Positions 6,252-38,598 of a DNA stretch of 64,000 nt are shown here, piece after piece. Below the pieces are notes generated by a model that saw nothing but the letters and a program-made list of their open reading frames with translations, had not been told where the DNA came from and did not search any database. Positions within the stretch are counted from its first letter, which is position 1. Every line of letters begins with the position of its first letter. The DNA comes from Escherichia coli (GTDB lineage: Bacteria > Pseudomonadota > Gammaproteobacteria > Enterobacterales > Enterobacteriaceae), in the NCBI RefSeq assembly GCF_046105845.1, contig NZ_CP151004.1. One strand, 5' to 3'. Made by a program: the position numbers and the translations under genes.

Positions 6252-7634
6252 ATGGAGATGTATTTTAAAAGAATGAAAGATGAGTGGACCGGGCTTGTCG
6301 AACAAGCAGATCCGCTCATTCGTGCTAAAGCCGCGGAAATTGCCGTTGCGCATGCCCATTATCTGAGTATTGAGTTTTACCGAATTGTCCGTATCGACCC
6401 GCATGCCGAAGAATTCTTGAGTAATGAACAAGTTGAGCGGCAGTTGAAAAGTGCGATGGAACGCTGGATTATTAACGTGCTTTCTGCCCAGGTTGACGAT
6501 GTCGAAAGGCTAATACAAATCCAGCATACCGTCGCGGAAGTGCATGCCCGCATAGGAATTCCGGTAGAAATTGTCGAGATGGGGTTTCGGGTGCTGAAAA
6601 AAATCCTCTATCCGGTAATCTTCTCTTCGGATTATTCCGCCGCAGAAAAACTTCAGGTCTACCATTTCTCTATTAACAGTATTGATATCGCTATGGAAGT
6701 GATGACCCGCGCGTTTACCTTTAGTGACAGTAGTGCCTCAAAGGAAGATGAAAACTATCGTATCTTCTCGTTACTGGAAAATGCCGAAGAAGAAAAAGAA
6801 CGGCAAATAGCCTCATTACTTTCATGGGAAATAGATATTATCTATAAAGTCCTACTGGATTCTGATTTAGGCAGTAGTTTGCCTTTAAGCCAGGCTGATT
6901 TTGGCCTGTGGTTTAACCATAAAGGTCGACATTATTTTAGCGGCATAGCCGAAGTGGGCCATATCTCCCGTCTGATTCAGGATTTCGACGGTATTTTCAA
7001 TCAAACCATGCGTAACACCAGGAATTTGAATAACAGAAGTTTGCGGGTGAAATTTTTATTACAGATAAGAAATACCGTATCGCAAATTATTACCTTGCTG
7101 CGTGAATTGTTTGAAGAAGTATCGCGCCACGAAGTCGGTATGGATGTACTGACGAAATTACTTAACCGCCGTTTCCTGCCGACGATCTTCAAACGCGAAA
7201 TTGCCCATGCCAACCGGACCGGTACACCGCTGTCAGTGCTGATTATTGACGTTGATAAATTCAAAGAGATTAACGATACGTGGGGCCATAACACTGGCGA
7301 TGAAATTCTGCGTAAAGTCTCTCAGGCCTTTTATGACAACGTCCGCAGTAGTGATTATGTTTTCCGCTACGGGGGCGATGAATTTATCATTGTTTTGACT
7401 GAAGCTTCGGAAAACGAAACGTTACGTACCGCAGAACGTATTCGCAGTCGGGTGGAGAAAACCAAACTGAAAGCCGCGAACGGCGAAGATATTGCCCTCT
7501 CACTTTCCATCGGTGCCGCCATGTTTAATGGTCATCCTGACTATGAGCGCCTCATTCAAATAGCCGATGAAGCTCTGTATATCGCCAAAAGACGAGGTAG
7601 AAACCGTGTTGAACTCTGGAAAGCCAGTCTTTAG
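6252..7634 (+). CDS. dosC: Oxygen-sensing diguanylate cyclase DosC (globin sensor + GGDEF), 460 aa
   Basis: Track ORF; GGDEF-domain C-terminus (RYGGDEF motif visible); recognised as DosC/YddV. Confidence 0.95.
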   Translation: MEMYFKRMKDEWTGLVEQADPLIRAKAAEIAVAHAHYLSIEFYRIVRIDPHAEEFLSNEQVERQLKSAMERWIINVLSAQVDDVERLIQIQHTVAEVHARIGIPVEIVEMGFRVLKKILYPVIFSSDYSAAEKLQVYHFSINSIDIAMEVMTRAFTFSDSSASKEDENYRIFSLLENAEEEKERQIASLLSWEIDIIYKVLLDSDLGSSLPLSQADFGLWFNHKGRHYFSGIAEVGHISRLIQDFDGIFNQTMRNTRNLNNRSLRVKFLLQIRNTVSQIITLLRELFEEVSRHEVGMDVLTKLLNRRFLPTIFKREIAHANRTGTPLSVLIIDVDKFKEINDTWGHNTGDEILRKVSQAFYDNVRSSDYVFRYGGDEFIIVLTEASENETLRTAERIRSRVEKTKLKAANGEDIALSLSIGAAMFNGHPDYERLIQIADEALYIAKRRGRNRVELWKASL

Positions 7635-7658: not shown

Positions 7659-10058
7659 ATGAAGCTAACCGATGCGGATAATGCCGCCGATGGCATTTTT
7701 TTCCCCGCCCTTGAGCAAAATATGATGGGCGCGGTGTTAATTAACGAAAATGATGAAGTGATGTTTTTCAACCCCGCCGCAGAGAAGCTCTGGGGGTACA
7801 AACGTGAAGAAGTTATTGGCAATAACATTGATATGCTGATTCCGCGGGATTTGCGTCCCGCGCATCCTGAATACATCCGTCACAACCGTGAAGGCGGTAA
7901 AGCGCGCGTCGAGGGGATGAGTCGGGAGCTGCAGCTGGAGAAAAAAGACGGCAGTAAAATCTGGACCCGTTTTGCGCTATCGAAAGTGAGCGCCGAGGGT
8001 AAAATTTATTACCTGGCGCTGGTACGAGATGCCAGCGTAGAAATGGCGCAAAAAGAACAGACCCGACAATTGATTATTGCCGTTGACCATCTCGACCGAC
8101 CGGTGATTGTCCTCGATCCGGAACGCCATATTGTGCAGTGCAATCGCGCATTTACCGAAATGTTTGGTTACTGCATTAGCGAAGCCAGCGGTATGCAGCC
8201 CGATACACTCCTGAACATTCCAGAATTCCCTGCTGATAACCGCATTCGTTTACAACAGTTGCTATGGAAAACCGCCCGCGATCAGGACGAATTTCTGCTG
8301 TTGACGCGCACCGGTGAAAAAATCTGGATTAAAGCCTCTATCAGCCCGGTCTATGATGTGCTCGCGCATCTGCAGAACCTGGTAATGACTTTCTCGGATA
8401 TCACCGAAGAACGGCAAATCCGCCAGCTTGAAGGCAATATTCTCGCCGCCATGTGCAGCAGCCCGCCATTTCATGAAATGGGGGAAATCATTTGTCGTAA
8501 CATCGAATCTGTTCTCAACGAATCGCATGTTTCGCTGTTCGCGCTGCGCAACGGGATGCCGATACACTGGGCGTCATCTTCGCACGGTACAGAAGTTCAA
8601 AATGCGCAAAGCTGGTCAGCGACCATTCGTCAGCGTGATGGCGCGCCGGCGGGGATCCTGCAAATTAAAACCTCGTCAGGAGCAGAAACCAGCGCCTTTA
8701 TCGAACGCGTGGCAGATATCAGCCAGCATATGGCCGCGCTGGCGCTGGAACAGGAAAAAAGCCGTCAGCATATTGAACAACTCATCCAATTTGATCCGAT
8801 GACCGGTCTGCCAAATCGCAATAACCTGCACAATTACCTCGATGACCTGGTCGACAAAGCCGTCTCTCCGGTGGTGTATCTCATCGGTGTTGACCATATT
8901 CAGGATGTGATTGATAGCCTTGGCTATGCGTGGGCCGATCAGGCATTGCTGGAAGTGGTCAATCGCTTTCGTGAAAAACTCAAACCGGATCAGTATCTCT
9001 GTCGTATCGAAGGTACGCAGTTTGTCCTCGTGAGCCTGGAAAACGACGTCAGTAACATTACCCAGATCGCCGATGAGCTACGGAATGTGGTCAGCAAGCC
9101 GATAATGATTGACGATAAACCATTCCCGCTTACCTTGAGTATTGGCATCAGCTACGACGTGGGTAAAAACCGCGATTACCTGCTCTCCACTGCTCACAAT
9201 GCAATGGATTATATTCGCAAGAATGGCGGTAACGGCTGGCAGTTCTTCAGCCCGGCGATGAACGAAATGGTAAAAGAGCGTTTGGTTTTAGGCGCAGCGC
9301 TGAAAGAAGCGATTAGCAATAACCAACTGAAACTGGTTTACCAGCCACAAATCTTCGCAGAAACGGGTGAACTCTACGGCATCGAAGCCCTTGCTCGCTG
9401 GCACGATCCCCTGCATGGTCATGTGCCCCCTTCACGGTTTATTCCTCTCGCAGAAGAGATTGGTGAAATCGAAAATATTGGGCGCTGGGTCATCGCGGAA
9501 GCTTGCCGTCAGTTAGCAGAATGGCGTAGCCAGAATATTCATATCCCGGCGTTATCCGTTAACTTGTCGGCGCTGCACTTTCGCAGTAATCAACTGCCTA
9601 ATCAGGTGTCTGATGCAATGCACGCCTGGGGTATTGACGGCCACCAGCTGACGGTGGAAATCACGGAAAGCATGATGATGGAACACGATACCGAAATCTT
9701 TAAGCGCATTCAGATCCTGCGCGATATGGGCGTGGGTTTATCGGTAGATGATTTTGGCACGGGCTTTTCCGGATTATCCCGCTTAGTCAGTCTTCCGGTA
9801 ACGGAAATCAAAATTGACAAAAGTTTTGTCGATCGTTGTCTGACCGAAAAACGCATCCTTGCCTTACTTGAAGCCATTACCAGCATTGGGCAAAGCCTTA
9901 ATTTAACCGTCGTGGCGGAAGGCGTCGAAACCAAAGAGCAATTTGAGATGCTACGCAAGATCCACTGTCGCGTTATTCAGGGATATTTCTTTTCCCGCCC
10001 CCTGCCCGCCGAAGAAATTCCAGGCTGGATGAGCAGCGTGTTACCGCTGAAAATCTGA
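7659..10058 (+). CDS. dosP: Oxygen-sensing c-di-GMP phosphodiesterase DosP (PAS-PAS-GGDEF-EAL), 799 aa
   Basis: Track ORF 7635..10058; start placed at internal Met MKLTDADNA...; EAL motif region present; immediately follows dosC. Confidence 0.93.
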   Translation: MKLTDADNAADGIFFPALEQNMMGAVLINENDEVMFFNPAAEKLWGYKREEVIGNNIDMLIPRDLRPAHPEYIRHNREGGKARVEGMSRELQLEKKDGSKIWTRFALSKVSAEGKIYYLALVRDASVEMAQKEQTRQLIIAVDHLDRPVIVLDPERHIVQCNRAFTEMFGYCISEASGMQPDTLLNIPEFPADNRIRLQQLLWKTARDQDEFLLLTRTGEKIWIKASISPVYDVLAHLQNLVMTFSDITEERQIRQLEGNILAAMCSSPPFHEMGEIICRNIESVLNESHVSLFALRNGMPIHWASSSHGTEVQNAQSWSATIRQRDGAPAGILQIKTSSGAETSAFIERVADISQHMAALALEQEKSRQHIEQLIQFDPMTGLPNRNNLHNYLDDLVDKAVSPVVYLIGVDHIQDVIDSLGYAWADQALLEVVNRFREKLKPDQYLCRIEGTQFVLVSLENDVSNITQIADELRNVVSKPIMIDDKPFPLTLSIGISYDVGKNRDYLLSTAHNAMDYIRKNGGNGWQFFSPAMNEMVKERLVLGAALKEAISNNQLKLVYQPQIFAETGELYGIEALARWHDPLHGHVPPSRFIPLAEEIGEIENIGRWVIAEACRQLAEWRSQNIHIPALSVNLSALHFRSNQLPNQVSDAMHAWGIDGHQLTVEITESMMMEHDTEIFKRIQILRDMGVGLSVDDFGTGFSGLSRLVSLPVTEIKIDKSFVDRCLTEKRILALLEAITSIGQSLNLTVVAEGVETKEQFEMLRKIHCRVIQGYFFSRPLPAEEIPGWMSSVLPLKI

Positions 10059-10071
10059 CAAATTCCTCTCG

Positions 10072-10094
10072 CCCGCACTCGCGGGTTTTCCTTT
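10072..10094 (+). terminator. Rho-independent terminator after dosP (CCCGC-ACTC-GCGGG then TTTTCCTTT)
   Basis: GC stem plus T-tract 14 bp after dosP stop. Confidence 0.5.
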
Positions 10095-10315
10095 AAAGTG
10101 ACACTGTCACTTAAATACTGTGATTTCAGCTACGATTCCGGGAGATTCCTTCCTTAACTTCCCCTCTTGCACCAAAACTGCACTACGCTGCACAAATGTT
10201 GATCAAAAGTTAAAAAATATAACTTTAAGCCAGCATTCTGGCGCTTATCCCGGCATGGCATGAGATCTGCATAAGCGGAAAGCGCAGCAATTTTTGTCTT
10301 ATACAGGAACCGTTT

Positions 10316-10897
10316 ATGTCGGATACCACCGAACTGGTTGATTTAGCCGTGATCTTCCCTGATCTGGAGATCGAATTGAAATACGCCTGCGCTGATAACA
10401 TCACAGGTAAAGCTATTTATCAGCAAGCGCGTTGTCTGTTACACAAGGATGCGATTACCGCGCTGGCGAAAAGTATCAGTATCGCCCAGCTGTCAGGCTT
10501 ACAACTGGTGATTTACGATGCGTATCGCCCACAACAAGCACAGGCGATGTTGTGGCAAACCTGCCCAGACCCGCAATATGTTGTTGATGTGGCGGTCGGT
10601 TCTAATCACAGCCGTGGCACGGCGATCGACCTGACGCTTCGTGATGAGCACGGGAACATCCTGGATATGGGTGCAGAGTTCGATGAAATGCACGAACGTT
10701 CCCATGCTTATCACCCTTCCGTCCCGCCCGCTGCTCAGCGCAATCGGCTGTTGCTGAATGCGATTATGACTGGCGGTGGCTTTGTCGGTATCCCGAGCGA
10801 ATGGTGGCACTTCGAATTACCCCTGGCAGCGAGTTACCCACTACTCGCTGATCAATTCACCTGTTTTATATCCCCTGGCACACAGCACGCCAGTTAA
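10316..10897 (+). CDS. ddpX: D-alanyl-D-alanine dipeptidase (VanX homolog), 193 aa
   Basis: Track ORF; ATG start; first gene of ddp operon. Confidence 0.93.
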   Translation: MSDTTELVDLAVIFPDLEIELKYACADNITGKAIYQQARCLLHKDAITALAKSISIAQLSGLQLVIYDAYRPQQAQAMLWQTCPDPQYVVDVAVGSNHSRGTAIDLTLRDEHGNILDMGAEFDEMHERSHAYHPSVPPAAQRNRLLLNAIMTGGGFVGIPSEWWHFELPLAASYPLLADQFTCFISPGTQHAS

Positions 10898-10910
10898 TCA
10901 GGAAACTGTC

Positions 10911-12461
10911 ATGAAGAGATCGATATCGTTTCGTCCTACATTGCTCGCGATCGTCCTTGCCACAACAATGCCGGTTGCGCACGCCGCCGTACCGAAAGAT
11001 ATGCTGGTGATCGGTAAAGCTGCCGACCCACAAACCCTCGACCCAGCGGTGACAATTGATAATAACGACTGGACAGTGACCTACCCGTCTTATCAGCGAC
11101 TGGTTCAGTACAAAACGGACGGTGATAAAGGCTCAACCGACGTTGAAGGCGATCTGGCGAGTAGCTGGAAAGCGTCTGACGATCAAAAAGAGTGGACGTT
11201 CACCCTGAAGGACAATGCTAAATTTGCCGATGGCACACCTGTCACTGCCGAAGCAGTAAAACTCTCTTTTGAGCGGTTACTAAAAATCGGCCAGGGGCCA
11301 GCAGAAGCATTTCCCAAAGATTTAAAGATTGATGCTCCCGACGAACATACGGTGAAGTTTACCCTTAGCCAACCATTCGCACCGTTCCTCTACACGCTGG
11401 CGAATGACGGTGCATCCATTATCAATCCGGCGGTCTTAAAGGAACATGCAGCGGATGATGCCCGTGGTTTCCTCGCGCAAAATACCGCTGGCTCCGGACC
11501 GTTTATGCTGAAAAGCTGGCAAAAAGGTCAGCAATTAGTTCTGGTGCCAAATCCGCATTACCCCGGTAATAAACCGAATTTCAAACGGGTATCGGTAAAA
11601 ATTATCGGTGAAAGTGCTTCCCGTCGCCTGCAGCTCTCCCGTGGCGACATTGACATTGCCGATGCGCTGCCGGTGGATCAACTCAACGCACTGAAGCAGG
11701 AAAACAAAGTCAATGTGGCAGAGTATCCGTCACTGCGCGTCACCTATCTGTATCTGAATAACAGCAAAGCGCCACTTAATCAGGCGGATCTGCGTCGGGC
11801 CATTTCCTGGTCTACCGATTATCAGGGTATGGTTAACGGCATTCTGAGTGGTAACGGAAAACAAATGCGCGGCCCGATTCCGGAAGGCATGTGGGGATAC
11901 GATGCGACGGCAATGCAATACAACCATGACGAAACGAAAGCCAAAGCCGAATGGGATAAAGTGACGAGCAAACCCACCAGCCTGACGTTTCTCTATTCTG
12001 ATAATGATCCGAACTGGGAGCCTATTGCTCTGGCGACACAATCCAGTCTCAACAAGCTGGGCATCAATGTGAAGCTGGAAAAGCTGGCGAACGCCACCAT
12101 GCGCGACAGAGTGGGTAAAGGTGATTACGACATTGCGATTGGCAACTGGAGCCCGGATTTTGCCGACCCGTATATGTTTATGAATTACTGGTTTGAGTCA
12201 GACAAAAAAGGTCTGCCGGGTAACCGCTCGTTCTATGAAAACAGTGAGGTCGATAAGCTACTGCGCAATGCGCTAGCGACCACCGACCAGACGCAGCGTA
12301 CCCGGGACTACCAGCAGGCACAGAAAATCGTCATTGATGACGCTGCTTATGTGTACCTGTTCCAGAAAAACTACCAACTGGCGATGAACAAAGAGGTGAA
12401 AGGTTTTGTGTTCAATCCCATGCTGGAACAGGTCTTCAATATCAATACCATGAGTAAATAA
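10911..12461 (+). CDS. ddpA: D,D-dipeptide ABC transporter periplasmic binding protein
   Basis: Track ORF 10776..12461; start at internal Met MKRSISFRPTLLAIVLATTMPVAHA (signal peptide). Confidence 0.92.
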   Translation: MKRSISFRPTLLAIVLATTMPVAHAAVPKDMLVIGKAADPQTLDPAVTIDNNDWTVTYPSYQRLVQYKTDGDKGSTDVEGDLASSWKASDDQKEWTFTLKDNAKFADGTPVTAEAVKLSFERLLKIGQGPAEAFPKDLKIDAPDEHTVKFTLSQPFAPFLYTLANDGASIINPAVLKEHAADDARGFLAQNTAGSGPFMLKSWQKGQQLVLVPNPHYPGNKPNFKRVSVKIIGESASRRLQLSRGDIDIADALPVDQLNALKQENKVNVAEYPSLRVTYLYLNNSKAPLNQADLRRAISWSTDYQGMVNGILSGNGKQMRGPIPEGMWGYDATAMQYNHDETKAKAEWDKVTSKPTSLTFLYSDNDPNWEPIALATQSSLNKLGINVKLEKLANATMRDRVGKGDYDIAIGNWSPDFADPYMFMNYWFESDKKGLPGNRSFYENSEVDKLLRNALATTDQTQRTRDYQQAQKIVIDDAAYVYLFQKNYQLAMNKEVKGFVFNPMLEQVFNINTMSK

Positions 12462-12462
12462 C

Positions 12463-13485
12463 GTGACCTTCTGGAGTATTTTACGCCAACGCTGCTGGGG
12501 GCTGGTGCTCGTGGTGGCGGGCGTCTGTGTGATTACGTTTATTATCTCGCATCTTATCCCCGGCGATCCGGCGCGGTTACTGGCGGGTGACCGCGCCAGC
12601 GATGCTATCGTGGATAATATTCGCCAGCAACTGGGACTGGACCAGCCACTGTACGTACAGTTTTACCGCTACGTCAGCGACCTGTTTCAGGGTGACCTGG
12701 GAACATCCATTCGTACCGGGCGTCCGGTGCTGGAAGAGTTGCGCATATTTTTCCCGGCGACGCTGGAACTGGCTTTTTGTGCCCTGCTGCTGGCACTCCT
12801 GATTGGCATCCCGCTGGGCATACTCTCTGCAGTCTGGCGAAATCGCTGGCTGGATCATCTGGTGCGAATAATGGCCATTACCGGAATCTCCACACCTGCG
12901 TTCTGGCTTGGGCTGGGCGTCATTGTGCTGTTTTATGGTCATCTGCAAATTCTTCCCGGCGGCGGAAGGCTTGATGACTGGCTGGATCCACCAACGCACG
13001 TTACCGGCTTTTATCTGCTCGATGCGCTGCTTGAAGGCAACGGTGAAGTCTTCTTCAATGCGCTGCAACATCTCATCTTACCGGCATTAACGCTGGCGTT
13101 CGTTCACCTGGGAATTGTCGCTCGCCAGATCCGCTCAGCGATGCTGGAACAATTGAGTGAAGACTACATTCGTACCGCCCGGGCCAGCGGCTTGCCCGGC
13201 TGGTATATCGTTTTATGTTATGCGCTACCCAATGCGTTGATCCCCTCGATTACCGTATTGGGGCTGGCGCTGGGCGATTTGTTGTATGGCGCAGTGCTCA
13301 CCGAAACCGTTTTTGCCTGGCCCGGAATGGGGGCATGGGTAGTGACATCAATACAGGCGCTCGACTTCCCTGCGGTGATGGGATTTGCCGTCGTGGTTTC
13401 GTTTGCTTATGTGCTGGTGAACCTGGTGGTGGATTTGCTCTATTTGTGGATTGATCCGCGTATCGGACGTGGAGGTGGTGAATGA
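12463..13485 (+). CDS. ddpB: D,D-dipeptide ABC transporter permease
   Basis: Track ORF (GTG start), DppB-like membrane protein. Confidence 0.92.
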   Translation: MTFWSILRQRCWGLVLVVAGVCVITFIISHLIPGDPARLLAGDRASDAIVDNIRQQLGLDQPLYVQFYRYVSDLFQGDLGTSIRTGRPVLEELRIFFPATLELAFCALLLALLIGIPLGILSAVWRNRWLDHLVRIMAITGISTPAFWLGLGVIVLFYGHLQILPGGGRLDDWLDPPTHVTGFYLLDALLEGNGEVFFNALQHLILPALTLAFVHLGIVARQIRSAMLEQLSEDYIRTARASGLPGWYIVLCYALPNALIPSITVLGLALGDLLYGAVLTETVFAWPGMGAWVVTSIQALDFPAVMGFAVVVSFAYVLVNLVVDLLYLWIDPRIGRGGGE

Positions 13486-14378
13486 TGCTAAGCGAGGAAA
13501 CGTCAGCCGTGCGCCCACCAAAACAAACGCGATTTAACGGTGCAAAACTGGTATGGATGCTGAAAGGCAGCCCGCTTACCGTGACCGGCGCAGTCATCAT
13601 TGTATTAATGCTACTGATGATGATTTTTTCACCGTGGCTGGCGACGCATGATCCCAACGCCATTGATTTAACCGCCCGCCTTTTGCCGCCTTCTGCGGCG
13701 CACTGGTTTGGCACCGATGAAGTGGGACGCGATCTGTTTAGCCGCGTACTGGTCGGCAGTCAGCAATCAATTCTCGCCGGATTAGTGGTAGTCGCCATTG
13801 CAGGTATGATGGGGTCGCTACTCGGGTGTCTATCCGGTGTGCTTGGCGGACGCGCAGACGCGATTATCATGCGCATCATGGACATTATGCTGTCGATTCC
13901 TTCGCTGGTGCTGACAATGGCACTGGCAGCCGCTCTCGGTCCGAGTTTGTTTAACGCCATGCTGGCGATTGCTATTGTGCGAATTCCCTTTTATGTGCGC
14001 CTGGCGCGGGGGCAAACATTAGTTGTTCGCCAGTACACTTACGTTCAGGCGGCGAAAACCTTTGGTGCGTCACGCTGGCATCTGATCAACTGGCATATTT
14101 TACGTAACTCCCTGCCGCCGCTGATTGTGCAGGCATCGCTGGATATCGGTAGCGCGATTTTAATGGCCGCCACGTTGGGATTTATTGGCCTGGGTGCTCA
14201 ACAACCGAGTGCTGAATGGGGGGCGATGGTGGCGAATGGTCGCAACTATGTGCTCGATCAATGGTGGTATTGCGCATTTCCGGGGGCAGCGATTTTGCTT
14301 ACCGCCGTCGGGTTTAATCTCTTTGGCGATGGTATTCGCGATCTGCTTGACCCGAAAGCAGGAGGAAAGCAGTCATGA
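13482..14378 (+). CDS. ddpC: D,D-dipeptide ABC transporter permease
   Basis: Track ORF; start overlaps ddpB stop by 4 nt. Confidence 0.92.
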   Translation: MMLSEETSAVRPPKQTRFNGAKLVWMLKGSPLTVTGAVIIVLMLLMMIFSPWLATHDPNAIDLTARLLPPSAAHWFGTDEVGRDLFSRVLVGSQQSILAGLVVVAIAGMMGSLLGCLSGVLGGRADAIIMRIMDIMLSIPSLVLTMALAAALGPSLFNAMLAIAIVRIPFYVRLARGQTLVVRQYTYVQAAKTFGASRWHLINWHILRNSLPPLIVQASLDIGSAILMAATLGFIGLGAQQPSAEWGAMVANGRNYVLDQWWYCAFPGAAILLTAVGFNLFGDGIRDLLDPKAGGKQS

Positions 14379-15361
14379 CCCAACCCGTTCTGGACATTCA
14401 ACAGCTGCATTTGAGTTTCCCCGGTTTTAACGGCGACGTTCACGCGCTCAACAATGTGTCATTGAAAATCAACCGCGGTGAAATTGTCGGTCTGGTGGGA
14501 GAATCCGGCTCGGGTAAATCAGTCACTGCAATGTTGATTATGCGTCTGCTACCGACGGGCAGTTATTGCGTACATCGGGGGCAGATTTCACTGCTGGGAG
14601 AAGATGCTCTTAACGCTCGGGAAAAGCAGCTTCGTCAGTGGCGCGGCGCACGAGTGGCGATGATCTTTCAGGAACCGATGACCGCCCTTAATCCGACACG
14701 TCGAATAGGTCTTCAGATGATGGACGTGATCCGCCATCATCAGCCAATAAGTCGTCGGGAAGCCAGAGCTAAAGCGATTGCCCTGCTGGAAGAGATGCAA
14801 ATCCCGGATGCCGTGGAAGTTATGTCGCGCTATCCGTTTGAGCTTTCAGGTGGTATGCGCCAGCGGGTAATGATTGCGCTGGCATTCTCCTGCGAGCCGC
14901 AATTGATTATTGCCGACGAACCGACTACGGCGCTGGACGTCACGGTACAGTTGCAGGTACTGCGTCTGCTTAAACATAAAGCCCGCGCCAGTGGAACTGC
15001 GGTACTGTTCATCAGCCATGATATGGCCGTGGTGTCGCAACTGTGCGATAGCGTTTACGTGATGTATGCCGGAAGCGTGATTGAGAGCGGCGTGACGGCA
15101 GACGTTATCCATCATCCCCGGCATCCGTATACCATTGGTTTGCTGCAATGCGCACCGGAACATGGAATACCGCGCCAGCCATTACCCGCCATTCCAGGGA
15201 CGGTACCAAACCTCACCCATTTGCCTGACGGCTGCGCTTTTCGCGATCGTTGCTATGCGGCAGGTGCACAGTGTGAAAACGTCCCGGCGCTGACAGCGTG
15301 TGGTGACAACAACCACCGCTGCGCCTGTTGGTATCCTCAGCAGGAGGTCATTAGTGTCTGA
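14375..15361 (+). CDS. ddpD: D,D-dipeptide ABC transporter ATP-binding protein
   Basis: Track ORF; Walker A GESGSGKS; overlaps ddpC stop by 4 nt. Confidence 0.92.
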   Translation: MTQPVLDIQQLHLSFPGFNGDVHALNNVSLKINRGEIVGLVGESGSGKSVTAMLIMRLLPTGSYCVHRGQISLLGEDALNAREKQLRQWRGARVAMIFQEPMTALNPTRRIGLQMMDVIRHHQPISRREARAKAIALLEEMQIPDAVEVMSRYPFELSGGMRQRVMIALAFSCEPQLIIADEPTTALDVTVQLQVLRLLKHKARASGTAVLFISHDMAVVSQLCDSVYVMYAGSVIESGVTADVIHHPRHPYTIGLLQCAPEHGIPRQPLPAIPGTVPNLTHLPDGCAFRDRCYAAGAQCENVPALTACGDNNHRCACWYPQQEVISV

Positions 15362-16280
15362 CACGTTATTAACGTTACGCGACGTCCATATCAATTTCCC
15401 TGCCCGAAAAAACTGGCTTGGTAAAACTACGGAACATGTTCATGCCATCAATGGTATTGATTTACAGATCCGTCGTGGTGAAACCTTAGGGATCGTCGGT
15501 GAGTCAGGCTGCGGCAAAAGCACCCTCGCACAGCTTTTAATGGGTATGCTGCAACCGAGCCACGGGCAGTACATCCGTTCAGGATCACAACGCATTATGC
15601 AGATGGTGTTTCAGGACCCGCTCTCTTCGCTTAATCCGCGCTTACCGGTGTGGCGCATCATCACGGAACCGCTCTGGATTGCTAAGCGTAGTAGTGAACA
15701 ACAGCGGCGAGCGTTGGCAGAGGAGCTGGCTGTGCAGGTGGGTATTCGTCCGGAGTATCTCGACCGCTTGCCTCATGCGTTCTCAGGCGGGCAGCGGCAA
15801 CGTATCGCCATTGCCAGAGCACTCTCTTCGCAGCCTGACGTGATTGTGCTTGATGAACCAACCTCGGCGCTGGATATCTCCGTGCAGGCGCAGATCCTCA
15901 ATTTACTGGTAACGCTACAGGAAAATCGCGAGCTGACTTATGTGCTGATTTCACACAATGTCTCGGTGATACGTCATATGAGCGATCGGGTGGCGGTGAT
16001 GTATCTCGGACAGATTGTGGAACTAGGAGACGCGCAACAGGTGCTGACAGCTCCGGCACATCCATACACCCGATTATTGCTGGATTCCCTCCCCGCCATT
16101 GATAAACCGCTGGAGGAAGAATGGGCATTACGTAAAACGGATCTGCCGGGAAACCGCACGTTGCCACAAGGCTGTTTTTTCCGCGAACGCTGCCCTCTGG
16201 CAACCCACGGATGTGAAGTCCGGCAATCATTAACAATAAGGGAGGACGGACGTGAGATCCGGTGCTGGCGGGCGCTGTAG
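15354..16280 (+). CDS. ddpF: D,D-dipeptide ABC transporter ATP-binding protein
   Basis: Track ORF 15300..16280; start placed at in-frame Val codon (VSDTLLTL...) overlapping ddpD stop, giving ~308 aa; Walker A GESGCGKS; exact start uncertain. Confidence 0.88.
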   Translation: MSDTLLTLRDVHINFPARKNWLGKTTEHVHAINGIDLQIRRGETLGIVGESGCGKSTLAQLLMGMLQPSHGQYIRSGSQRIMQMVFQDPLSSLNPRLPVWRIITEPLWIAKRSSEQQRRALAEELAVQVGIRPEYLDRLPHAFSGGQRQRIAIARALSSQPDVIVLDEPTSALDISVQAQILNLLVTLQENRELTYVLISHNVSVIRHMSDRVAVMYLGQIVELGDAQQVLTAPAHPYTRLLLDSLPAIDKPLEEEWALRKTDLPGNRTLPQGCFFRERCPLATHGCEVRQSLTIREDGREIRCWRAL

Positions 16281-16281
16281 A

Positions 16282-16334
16282 GACGCTAACAACGCATCAG
16301 GCAATCACGCGCCTGACGCGTCATCCGGCAACGC
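16282..16334. repeat. REP-like palindromic element between convergent ddpF and osmC
   Basis: CGCATCAGGC ... GCGCCTGACGCGTCATCCGGC motifs resembling REP consensus. Confidence 0.45.
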
Positions 16335-36362: not shown

Positions 36363-37903
36363 AAATACGTTCGCAAGTCGGCATGGTGCTTAACCTCGAT
36401 AAATGTATCGGCTGCCATACCTGTTCGGTGACCTGTAAAAACGTCTGGACCGGACGCGAAGGCATGGAGTACGCATGGTTTAACAACGTCGAAACCAAAC
36501 CGGGCATTGGTTATCCGAAAAACTGGGAAGATCAGGAAGAGTGGCAAGGCGGCTGGGTGCGTGATGTGAATGGCAAGATCCGCCCGCGTCTGGGCAGCAA
36601 GATGGGCGTAATAACCAAAATCTTCGCCAACCCGGTGGTGCCGCAGATTGATGATTACTACGAACCTTTCACCTTCGACTACGAACATTTGCATAGCGCA
36701 CCGGAAGGCAAACATATCCCTACTGCTCGCCCGCGTTCACTGATTGACGGCAAACGGATGGACAAAGTGATCTGGGGGCCAAACTGGGAAGAACTGCTGG
36801 GCGGCGAATTTGAAAAACGCGCCCGCGACCGCAACTTCGAGGCCATGCAAAAGGAGATGTACGGGCAGTTTGAAAACACCTTCATGATGTACCTGCCGCG
36901 CTTGTGCGAACACTGCCTCAATCCCAGTTGCGTGGCGACCTGCCCAAGCGGCGCTATCTACAAACGCGAAGAAGACGGCATTGTGCTGATCGATCAGGAT
37001 AAATGCCGTGGCTGGCGTTTGTGCATTAGCGGTTGTCCGTACAAAAAAATCTACTTCAACTGGAAAAGCGGCAAGTCAGAAAAATGTATCTTCTGTTACC
37101 CACGAATTGAGTCAGGCCAACCCACCGTGTGCTCAGAAACCTGCGTGGGTCGCATCCGGTATCTGGGCGTGCTGCTTTACGACGCCGACCGCATCGAGGA
37201 AGCGGCGAGCACCGAGCGCGAAGTTGACCTCTATGAACGCCAGTGCGAAGTGTTCCTCGATCCGCACGATCCCTCAGTGATCGAAGAAGCCCTGAAACAA
37301 GGTATTCCACAAAACGTGATTGAAGCTGCCCAGCGTTCGCCAGTCTACAAAATGGCGATGGACTGGAAACTGGCGTTACCGCTGCACCCTGAATACCGCA
37401 CCCTGCCGATGGTCTGGTACGTTCCTCCGCTGTCACCGATTCAGTCTTACGCTGATGCGGGCGGTTTGCCGAAAAGCGAAGGCGTGCTCCCAGCCATCGA
37501 GAGCCTGCGTATTCCTGTGCAATATCTCGCCAATATGTTAAGTGCTGGCGATACCGGTCCGGTACTGCGGGCGCTAAAACGGATGATGGCGATGCGCCAC
37601 TATATGCGTTCACAAACCGTGGAAGGCGTTACCGATACCCGCGCCATTGACGAAGTAGGCCTGAGCGTCGCCCAGGTCGAAGAGATGTATCGCTACCTCG
37701 CCATTGCCAACTATGAAGACCGTTTTGTCATTCCAACCAGTCATCGGGAAATGGCGGGCGATGCCTTCGCAGAACGCAATGGCTGCGGTTTTACCTTTGG
37801 CGACGGTTGCCACGGCTCGGACAGCAAATTCAACCTGTTCAACAGTAGCCGTATCGATGCCATCAACATCACCGAAGTGCGCGACAAAGCGGAGGGCGAA
37901 TAA
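36359..37903 (+). CDS. narY: Respiratory nitrate reductase Z beta subunit (Fe-S), 514 aa
   Basis: Track ORF; Cys-cluster motifs; overlaps narZ stop. Confidence 0.96.
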   Translation: MKIRSQVGMVLNLDKCIGCHTCSVTCKNVWTGREGMEYAWFNNVETKPGIGYPKNWEDQEEWQGGWVRDVNGKIRPRLGSKMGVITKIFANPVVPQIDDYYEPFTFDYEHLHSAPEGKHIPTARPRSLIDGKRMDKVIWGPNWEELLGGEFEKRARDRNFEAMQKEMYGQFENTFMMYLPRLCEHCLNPSCVATCPSGAIYKREEDGIVLIDQDKCRGWRLCISGCPYKKIYFNWKSGKSEKCIFCYPRIESGQPTVCSETCVGRIRYLGVLLYDADRIEEAASTEREVDLYERQCEVFLDPHDPSVIEEALKQGIPQNVIEAAQRSPVYKMAMDWKLALPLHPEYRTLPMVWYVPPLSPIQSYADAGGLPKSEGVLPAIESLRIPVQYLANMLSAGDTGPVLRALKRMMAMRHYMRSQTVEGVTDTRAIDEVGLSVAQVEEMYRYLAIANYEDRFVIPTSHREMAGDAFAERNGCGFTFGDGCHGSDSKFNLFNSSRIDAINITEVRDKAEGE

Positions 37904-38598
37904 TGCAGATCCTCAAAGTGATCGGCCTGTTGATGGAGTATCCGGACGAGCTGTTGTGGGAATGTAAGGAGGACGCGCTGGCGTTGATCCGCCGCGACGC
38001 ACCGATGCTTACGGATTTTACCCGCAACCTGCTTAACGCGCCGCTGCTGGATAAACAGGCCGAATGGTGCGAAGTGTTTGACCGTGGACGTACCACATCG
38101 CTGCTGCTGTTCGAACATGTTCATGCCGAGTCCCGCGATCGCGGCCAGGCAATGGTGGACCTGCTGGCGGAGTATGAAAAGGTCGGCCTGCAGTTGGATT
38201 GTCGAGAACTGCCCGATTATCTGCCGCTGTATCTGGAGTACTTAAGCGTACTGCCGGACGATCAGGCGAAAGAAGGCTTGCTCAACGTTGCGCCGATCCT
38301 CGCCCTGCTTGGCGGACGCTTAAAACAACGCGAGGCTCCGTGGTATTCGTTGTTTGACGCCCTGCTGCATCTGGCGGGAAGTACACTTTCAAGTGACAGT
38401 GTCACAAAACAAGTAAACAACGAGGAGCGCGATGACACCCGCCAGGCGCTTGATGCAGTGTGGGAAGAGGAGCAGGTGAAGTTTATTGAAGATAACGCCA
38501 CGGCGTGTGACAGCTCGCCGCTTAATCAATATCAGCGACGCTTTAGCCAGGATGTCGCGCCGCAATATGTCGACATCAGTGCGGGAGGTGGGAAATGA
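37903..38598 (+). CDS. narW: Nitrate reductase Z assembly chaperone (delta), 231 aa
   Basis: Track ORF; start overlaps narY stop by 1 nt (TAATG). Confidence 0.94.

What the first reader, a model, noticed from the sequence alone, without database searches (positions are those of the whole stretch)
10096..10112. Perfect 17-bp palindrome AAGTGACA-C-TGTCACTT between dosP and ddpX
An exact dyad (8-bp arms around a central base) lies just after the dosP terminator and ~200 bp upstream of ddpX. Perfect palindromes of this length are uncommon by chance and usually mark a dimeric regulator site; I cannot assign it to a known regulator.
Basis: seen in the sequence. Interest (0 to 1): 0.3.

Follow-up and report, generated by a model that had tools for sequence, protein, structure and literature searches.

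The report
A matS site for MatP

Summary
The 17-bp dyad AAGTGACA-C-TGTCACTT is really at 10096-10112, 5 bp after the T-run of the dosP terminator and 204 bp upstream of ddpX. Its core, 10098-10110 (GTGACACTGTCAC), matches exactly the published matS consensus GTGACRNYGTCAC, the site bound by MatP in the Ter macrodomain. The same 13-mer occurs twice more in the window, inside narW and ydcV. In K-12 the site lies 27.5 kb from dif and is one of 19 exact consensus sites in 799 kb of Ter (0.19 expected), against none in 200 kb of control DNA. The identical 13-mer is the 'matS19' oligo and the EMSA substrate used in MatP papers. matP is present in 5,425 of 5,426 E. coli genomes. The core is kept in genomes that lack the whole ddp operon and in two divergent Escherichia lineages whose flanks have diverged. 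The one core variant seen (T to C) falls on the degenerate Y position. The two extra outer base pairs that make the palindrome 17 bp long are a rare allele (at most 38 of 5,298 genomes; K-12 reads AACGTGAC). ddpX already has a documented sigma54/NtrC promoter downstream of the dyad. I could not retrieve direct ChIP occupancy for this individual site.

The parts
10098..10110 (.). matS site (13-bp core GTGACACTGTCAC) in the dosP-ddpX intergenic region. It corresponds to K-12 MG1655 1,563,282-1,563,294, 27.5 kb from dif.
   Evidence: Exact match to GTGACRNYGTCAC. K-12 coordinates and dif position. It is one of 19 exact sites in 799 kb of Ter. The core is invariant, or varies only at the degenerate Y position, across 10 Escherichia sequences.
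10096..10112 (.). The 17-bp perfect palindrome as reported: the matS core plus two extra complementary base pairs on each side. The A at 10097 that completes it is a rare allele.
   Evidence: K-12 and 8 other sequences have C at the position of 10097. The exact allele is in at most 38 of 5,298 genomes.
38393..38405 (.). Second matS copy (GTGACAGTGTCAC, the reverse complement of the same 13-mer), inside the 231-aa ORF 37903-38598. Its K-12 counterpart lies in narW at 1,536,807.
55737..55749 (.). Third matS copy (GTGACAGTGTCAC), inside the 264-aa ORF 55147-55941 on the minus strand. Its K-12 counterpart lies in ydcV at 1,514,954.

Best explanation
The dyad is a matS site. Its 13-bp core, GTGACACTGTCAC, is the recognition sequence of MatP, the Ter-macrodomain protein of E. 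coli and related gamma-proteobacteria. According to the cited literature, a MatP dimer binds each matS. The array of roughly 23-28 matS sites spread over about 0.8-1 Mb around dif marks the terminus region. Bound MatP excludes or unloads the MukBEF condensin from Ter, links Ter to the divisome through ZapB, and keeps sister termini together at mid-cell until division. This site is one unit of that array, 27.5 kb from dif where matS density is highest. Its position between dosP and ddpX is incidental, since other copies lie inside genes. The two extra outer base pairs that make a 17-bp palindrome in this strain are a rare polymorphism outside the recognised core. Shown here: the consensus match, the local recurrence, the restriction to Ter, the conservation pattern, and the presence of matP in the species. 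Taken from the literature: MatP binding to this 13-mer and what bound MatP does. Inferred: that this individual site is occupied in vivo.
For: (1) The core matches the published consensus GTGACRNYGTCAC exactly (consensus in PMC6907758). (2) There are three exact copies in the 64-kb window, and none of 100 shuffles reached 3. (3) In K-12 the site is at 1,563,282-294, 27.5 kb from dif at 1,590,750. (4) 799 kb of K-12 Ter (1,145,001-1,944,000) holds 19 exact sites against 0.19 expected, spanning 760 kb. Density is 4.0 per 100 kb within 100 kb of dif and 1.8 elsewhere. This fits the published '23 matS in 800 kb' (PMC3330122 abstract; PMC7394560) and 'density doubles near dif' (PMC10945525). (5) 200 kb of control DNA at oriC, 0.1, 0.7 and 2.8 Mb holds no exact site, and one-mismatch sites are at background in both sets. 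(6) The identical 13-mer is the matS19 oligo AAAGTGACACTGTCACCTT (PMC6538776), which I located at K-12 1,745,151. It is also the matS used for MatP EMSA (PMC7394560). (7) MatP ChIP-seq peaks are centred on matS sites: 21 of the 26 top peaks were matS sites (PMC4738335). (8) matP is in 5,425 of 5,426 E. coli genomes and has the MatP and MatP_C Pfam domains. MatP structures have been solved (4d8j, 3vea/3veb, 7nyw and related entries). (9) Conservation follows the consensus rather than the palindrome. The core is unchanged in ddp-less E. coli, in Escherichia sp. E1V33 and in a divergent lineage, all with altered flanks. The only core change seen is T to C at the Y position.
Against: I could not retrieve a site-by-site list or ChIP track that names this individual site. 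The lists are in figures or in papers not held, so in vivo occupancy here is inferred. One of the originally listed sites, matS5, showed no enrichment, so a consensus match does not guarantee binding. The site is missing at this position in E. whittamii, E. albertii and strain E69, so it is individually dispensable. My count of 19 exact sites is lower than the published 23-28, so the published sets include non-exact sites that I did not identify.
Confidence: 0.95

Rival explanations
1. It is an operator for an unidentified dimeric transcription factor that controls ddpX or the ddp operon.
For: It is intergenic, 204 bp upstream of ddpX and about 150 bp upstream of the sigma54 element. It is palindromic, as many operators are.
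Against: The identical 13-mer lies inside narW and ydcV coding sequence. The core is kept in about 1,175 E. coli genomes that lack ddpXABCDF, where the next gene is the convergent osmC. ddpX expression is already accounted for by a sigma54/NtrC promoter, with 104-fold induction on nitrogen depletion (PMC8743547). That element and the TGCAC repeats lie downstream of the dyad. The outer arms of the palindrome are not conserved. No sigma70-like promoter is found nearby.
Confidence: 0.02
2. It is an RNA element: a second stem-loop of the dosP 3' end, such as a stabilising hairpin or part of the terminator.
For: As RNA the dyad folds into a 7-bp stem with a 3-nt loop at -7 kcal/mol, z-score about -3.
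Against: It lies downstream of the dosP terminator stem (10071-10086) and its T-run, so most transcripts should end before it. It has no T-tail on either strand. It matches no Rfam family. In K-12 and most strains the A to C change removes one of the 7 stem pairs while the DNA consensus stays intact. The same 13-mer recurs in unrelated transcripts and only in Ter, which no RNA role explains.
Confidence: 0.01
3. It is a chance palindrome with no function.
For: Perfect palindromes with 8-bp arms occur at about the chance rate in this window.
Against: This specific core occurs 3 times in 64 kb and 19 times in 799 kb of Ter, against 0.19 expected, and not at all in 200 kb of controls. It is conserved where its flanks diverge.
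Confidence: 0.01

Closest known systems
matS sites of the E. coli Ter macrodomain (MatP/matS system; Mercier et al. 2008, as cited in PMC6907758)
   Same: Exact 13-bp consensus match, location 27.5 kb from dif, membership of a Ter-restricted array, the same 13-mer as the experimentally used matS19, and the cognate matP gene present in the species.
   Different: Nothing of substance. In this strain a rare A allele at 10097 extends the symmetry to 17 bp. The flanks of the other K-12 sites show no such extension, so this is not a feature of the family.
CRP (cAMP receptor protein) sites, consensus TGTGA-N6-TCACA (consensus recalled from memory)
   Same: They contain GTGA ... TCAC half-sites and are palindromic.
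   Different: The spacing here is GTGA-N5-TCAC, one base short of the CRP spacing (read). The distribution is confined to Ter and includes coding regions, unlike a promoter-associated regulon.
SlmA-binding sites (SBS), consensus GTGAGTACTCAC (recalled from memory)
   Same: GTGA...TCAC palindrome bound by a nucleoid-positioning protein.
   Different: That is a 12-bp site with a 4-bp centre, against 13 bp with a 5-bp centre here. From memory, SBS are depleted from Ter, whereas this motif is confined to Ter.

Membership tests
matS (MatP-binding site) | Matches the 13-bp consensus GTGACRNYGTCAC | tested here: met
   Exact match at 10098-10110. The consensus is quoted in PMC6907758.
matS (MatP-binding site) | Lies within the Ter macrodomain, around dif | tested here: met
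   K-12 position 1,563,282, with dif at 1,590,750, 27.5 kb away. It lies inside the 760-kb span of exact sites.
matS (MatP-binding site) | [quoted passage not shown] | tested here: met
   3 copies in the 64-kb window, 19 in 799 kb of Ter against 0.19 expected, and 0 in 200 kb at oriC, 0.1, 0.7 and 2.8 Mb. Only about 1 Mb of the 4.6-Mb genome was sampled.
matS (MatP-binding site) | The cognate protein MatP is encoded by the genome | tested here: met
   matP is not in the window. The K-12 gene matches 5,425 of 5,426 complete E. coli genomes, and its product has the Pfam MatP and MatP_C domains.
matS (MatP-binding site) | MatP binds the sequence in vitro | not testable with these tools
   From the literature only. 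The identical 13-mer is the matS19 oligo (PMC6538776) and the EMSA substrate (PMC7394560). The native flanks of this site have not been tested.
matS (MatP-binding site) | MatP occupies this very site in vivo (ChIP) | not testable with these tools
   ChIP-seq peaks centre on matS sites in general (PMC4738335; PMC10945525). The per-site lists are in figures not held as text.
matS (MatP-binding site) | Sequence variation respects the consensus, with selection on the core and not on the flanks | tested here: met
   Ten Escherichia sequences have 12 of 13 core columns invariant. The only change is T to C at the Y position, while both flanks vary. The core is kept in L012 and L014, whose flanks have diverged.
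Intrinsic (rho-independent) terminator | G+C-rich stem-loop followed by a T-run | tested here: not met
   The scan finds only the dosP terminator at 10071-10086. The dyad stem is A/T-rich at -7 kcal/mol and has no T-run on either strand.
Promoter operator of ddpX | Presence is tied to the regulated gene or promoter | tested here: not met
   The core is retained in genomes without the ddp operon. Identical copies lie inside narW and ydcV.

The most novel reading that the evidence does not exclude
Besides being a matS site, this copy might have a local side effect because of where it sits. It is about 5 bp after the dosP terminator T-run and roughly 65 bp upstream of the TGCAC repeats that precede the sigma54 ddpX promoter. 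MatP bound there could insulate dosP read-through from ddpX or alter the DNA geometry needed for enhancer-dependent activation. The rare A allele at 10097, which lengthens the palindrome, might change MatP affinity. Nothing here tests this. Retention of the site in ddp-less genomes and its absence in E. whittamii and E. albertii argue that any such role is not what maintains it.
Probability: 0.04. Interest if true: 0.35.

Novelty: already known. Interest (0 to 1): 0.08.

Why it matters
It does not add new biology, because matS and MatP have been known since 2008 and are well studied. The practical value is for annotation. matS sites are not marked in the RefSeq records examined, so a scan of raw sequence will keep flagging them as unexplained palindromes. 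Searching for GTGACRNYGTCAC recognises them and also places a window within the Ter macrodomain. The case also shows that the conserved unit is 13 bp and can be shorter than the palindrome that catches the eye, which is 17 bp here only through a rare allele.

Tried and rejected
(1) Palindrome rarity as evidence. Counting all perfect palindromes with arms of at least 8 bp against Markov shuffles showed no enrichment, so the argument rests on the specific motif.

(2) Known transcription-factor consensus sequences recalled from memory: CRP, FNR, LexA, NorR, TyrR, LacI-family, GntR-family and SlmA. None fits in spacing or sequence. CRP and SlmA are closest but are off by one base in the centre. 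These were inspections of the sequence, not database searches.

(3) RNA element or terminator. Rejected.

(4) Finding a published per-site list of matS coordinates. Mercier 2008 is not held. The Nolivos 2016 supplement has no coordinates. The Seba 2024 list is in a figure. Searches for gene names together with MatP and for site names matS13-19 gave nothing usable apart from the matS19 oligo.

(5) Treating the site as matS19 itself. Rejected, because the matS19 oligo flanks match K-12 1,745,151 and not this site.

(6) The ddp presence/absence junction 24 bp away as a clue to a recombination site. The dyad is present in both forms, and the junction is a replacement of 6.15 kb by 76 bp with no repeat involving the dyad. 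I dropped it as an explanation of the dyad.

Full report
OBSERVATION. BLAST against complete E. coli genomes, with the annotation of a 100%-identical hit, identifies dosC (6252-7634), dosP (7659-10058), ddpX (10316-10897) and ddpABCDF, followed by the convergent osmC. The dosP intrinsic terminator is a stem at 10071-10086 followed by a T-run. The dyad starts about 5 bp after that T-run and ends 204 bp before the ddpX ATG. Perfect palindromes with arms of at least 8 bp number 4 against 2.45 +/- 1.6 expected for spacers 0-1, and 9 against 5.9 +/- 2.5 for spacers 0-4.

THE CLUE FROM OTHER GENOMES. The dosP-ddpX spacer matches 5,390 of 5,426 complete E. coli genomes, but about 1,175 of them match only its first 76-79 bases. 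In those genomes the entire ddpXABCDF operon is absent and dosP is followed directly by the convergent osmC. They still carry the dyad core, reading AACGTGACACTGTCACTT. So the element is not tied to ddpX. K-12 MG1655, which does have ddp, also reads AACGTGAC....

IDENTIFICATION. The 13-bp core GTGACACTGTCAC (10098-10110) fits GTGACRNYGTCAC. I recalled this as the matS consensus and then confirmed it in PMC6907758, whose table lists 'MatP GTGACRNYGTCAC' and describes 23 matS sites, on average one every 35 kb, in the Ter macrodomain. A search of the window for this consensus, allowing one mismatch, found three sites. All three are exact and all are the same 13-mer in one or the other orientation: 10098-10110, 38393-38405 and 55737-55749. 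No shuffle out of 100 reached three. The second and third copies lie inside coding sequence, in ORFs whose K-12 counterparts are narW and ydcV. A full-text search for the 13-mer returned two MatP papers. In one it is the 'matS19' oligonucleotide AAAGTGACACTGTCACCTT (PMC6538776). In the other it is the laboratory's matS site used for MatP gel shifts (PMC7394560).

POSITION AND DISTRIBUTION. In MG1655 the site is at 1,563,282-1,563,294 and dif is at 1,590,750-1,590,777, 27.5 kb away. I assembled 799 kb of the K-12 terminus region (1,145,001-1,944,000) and four 50-kb control stretches at oriC, 0.1, 0.7 and 2.8 Mb. The terminus region holds 19 exact consensus sites against 0.19 expected. They span 760 kb, with 4.0 per 100 kb within 100 kb of dif and 1.8 per 100 kb elsewhere. 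The controls hold none, and one-mismatch sites are at background level in both sets. These numbers agree with the published picture of 23 matS in about 800 kb (PMC3330122 abstract; PMC7394560). They also agree with 28 ChIP-defined sites whose density doubles near dif (PMC10945525). The site under review is the eleventh of the 19. The sixteenth, at 1,745,151, has exactly the flanks of the matS19 oligo, so the reviewed site shares its core with matS19 but is a different site.

CONSERVATION. An alignment of ten Escherichia sequences shows 12 of the 13 core columns invariant. The ten are the window, K-12, five ddp-less strains, one ddp-positive strain, Escherichia sp. E1V33 and a divergent lineage. 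The single change, in strain 317, is T to C at the degenerate Y position, so the site still fits the consensus. Both flanks vary, strongly so in E1V33. Only the window strain has the A at 10097 that completes the 17-bp palindrome. The exact 30-mer around it is in at most 38 of 5,298 genomes that have the site, and 4,335 differ by one base. The flanks of the 19 K-12 sites show no palindromic extension. The site is absent at this position in E. whittamii, E. albertii and strain E69, where the DNA after dosP is different. Citrobacter amalonaticus has another consensus site 2.1 kb downstream of its dosP relative. Individual sites therefore turn over while the array persists.

THE PROTEIN. matP is not in the window. 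The K-12 gene (1,018,485-1,018,937) matches 5,425 of 5,426 genomes. Its product has the Pfam MatP N-terminal and MatP_C ribbon-helix-helix domains, and structures are solved in PDB entries 4d8j, 3vea/3veb and the 7nyw series.

MECHANISM (from the literature, not tested here). MatP binds matS, and ChIP-seq peaks in ter are centred on matS sites (PMC4738335). matS-bound MatP displaces or unloads MukBEF from ter (PMC4738335; PMC8669397 abstract; PMC10945525). It interacts with the divisome protein ZapB and keeps sister ter regions paired at mid-cell until division (PMC7394560). The effect on MukBEF grows with the number and density of matS sites (PMC10945525). This fits one site being dispensable while the array is maintained.

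RIVALS. A ddpX operator is unlikely. Identical copies lie in coding regions, and the core survives where ddp is absent. ddpX is a documented sigma54/NtrC promoter, induced 104-fold on nitrogen depletion (PMC8743547). The only sigma54-type match in the window, TGGCAT-N5-CTGCA, is at 10256-10271, with three TGCAC repeats at 10168-10194 upstream of it. An RNA role is unlikely because the dyad follows the terminator, folds weakly (-7 kcal/mol), has no T-run and matches no Rfam family. Chance is excluded by the enrichment figures.

LIMITS. I could not obtain a per-site list or ChIP track naming this site, so occupancy in vivo is inferred. One listed matS, matS5, shows no enrichment. Only about 1 Mb of the K-12 genome was scanned.

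VERDICT. This is a real, functional-looking element that is already known: a matS site. The link to ddpX regulation and the emphasis on 17 bp were not.

Noticed in passing
window 10134-16291, compared with L002 4070-4195 and L003: The whole ddpXABCDF operon is a presence/absence polymorphism. About 1,175 of 5,390 E. coli genomes match only the first 76-79 bases after dosP. In the ddp-less form about 6.15 kb (window ~10137-16291) is replaced by 76 bp of unrelated sequence, followed by the shared REP-like DNA downstream of osmC. The left junction is 24 bp from the matS site.
   Followed up: partly
L002 1412-1576, L003 1411-1575: In the two ddp-less genomes whose wider flanks were examined, dosC is also reduced to a 165-bp C-terminal pseudogene fragment next to an intact dosP. 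These strains would then have the phosphodiesterase without its partner cyclase.
   Followed up: no
window 10168-10271: These are the likely real ddpX control elements. A sigma54-type promoter, TGGCAT-N5-CTGCA, is at 10256-10271 and is the only such match in the window. Three TGCAC repeats 11 bp apart are at 10168-10194, and an A/T-rich ATCAAAAGTTA follows at ~10202-10212. All are conserved in Escherichia sp. E1V33 and lineage L014. ddpX is a documented NtrC/sigma54 target (PMC8743547).
   Followed up: partly
window 10111-10116, 38387-38392, 55731-55736: When oriented alike, the three window matS copies share the flank GTGACACTGTCAC-TT(A/G)AA on one side only. This is an asymmetric extension beyond the 13-bp consensus, and I do not know whether it is chance or part of the revised consensus of Seba 2024.
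   Followed up: no
window 29517-29542: A perfect palindrome with 11-bp arms, CTGATTTATCA-AGGG-TGATAAATCAG, sits in the 41-bp gap between two ORFs of about 420 aa (28243-29508 and 29550-30827). These ORFs were not identified or compared with K-12.
   Followed up: no
L018 (NZ_JAHZMO010000128.1, 519 bp): A 519-bp contig in an assembly labelled Terrisporobacter petrolearius, a Firmicute, encodes a DosP fragment 97% identical to E. coli DosP at coverage 0.76. It is most likely E. coli contamination of that assembly.
   Followed up: no
L016 7491-7503 (Citrobacter amalonaticus): A different exact matS-consensus site, GTGACATTGTCAC, lies 2.1 kb downstream of the dosP relative, which is 77% identical. 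That region may therefore be in Ter in Citrobacter as well.
   Followed up: no
K-12 NC_000913.3 1,745,151-1,745,163 (L032): This K-12 site has exactly the sequence of the widely used 'matS19' oligonucleotide AAAGTGACACTGTCACCTT. That fixes where the reagent comes from. It also suggests that three of the published sites preceding it are not exact consensus matches or lie below 1.145 Mb.
   Followed up: partly
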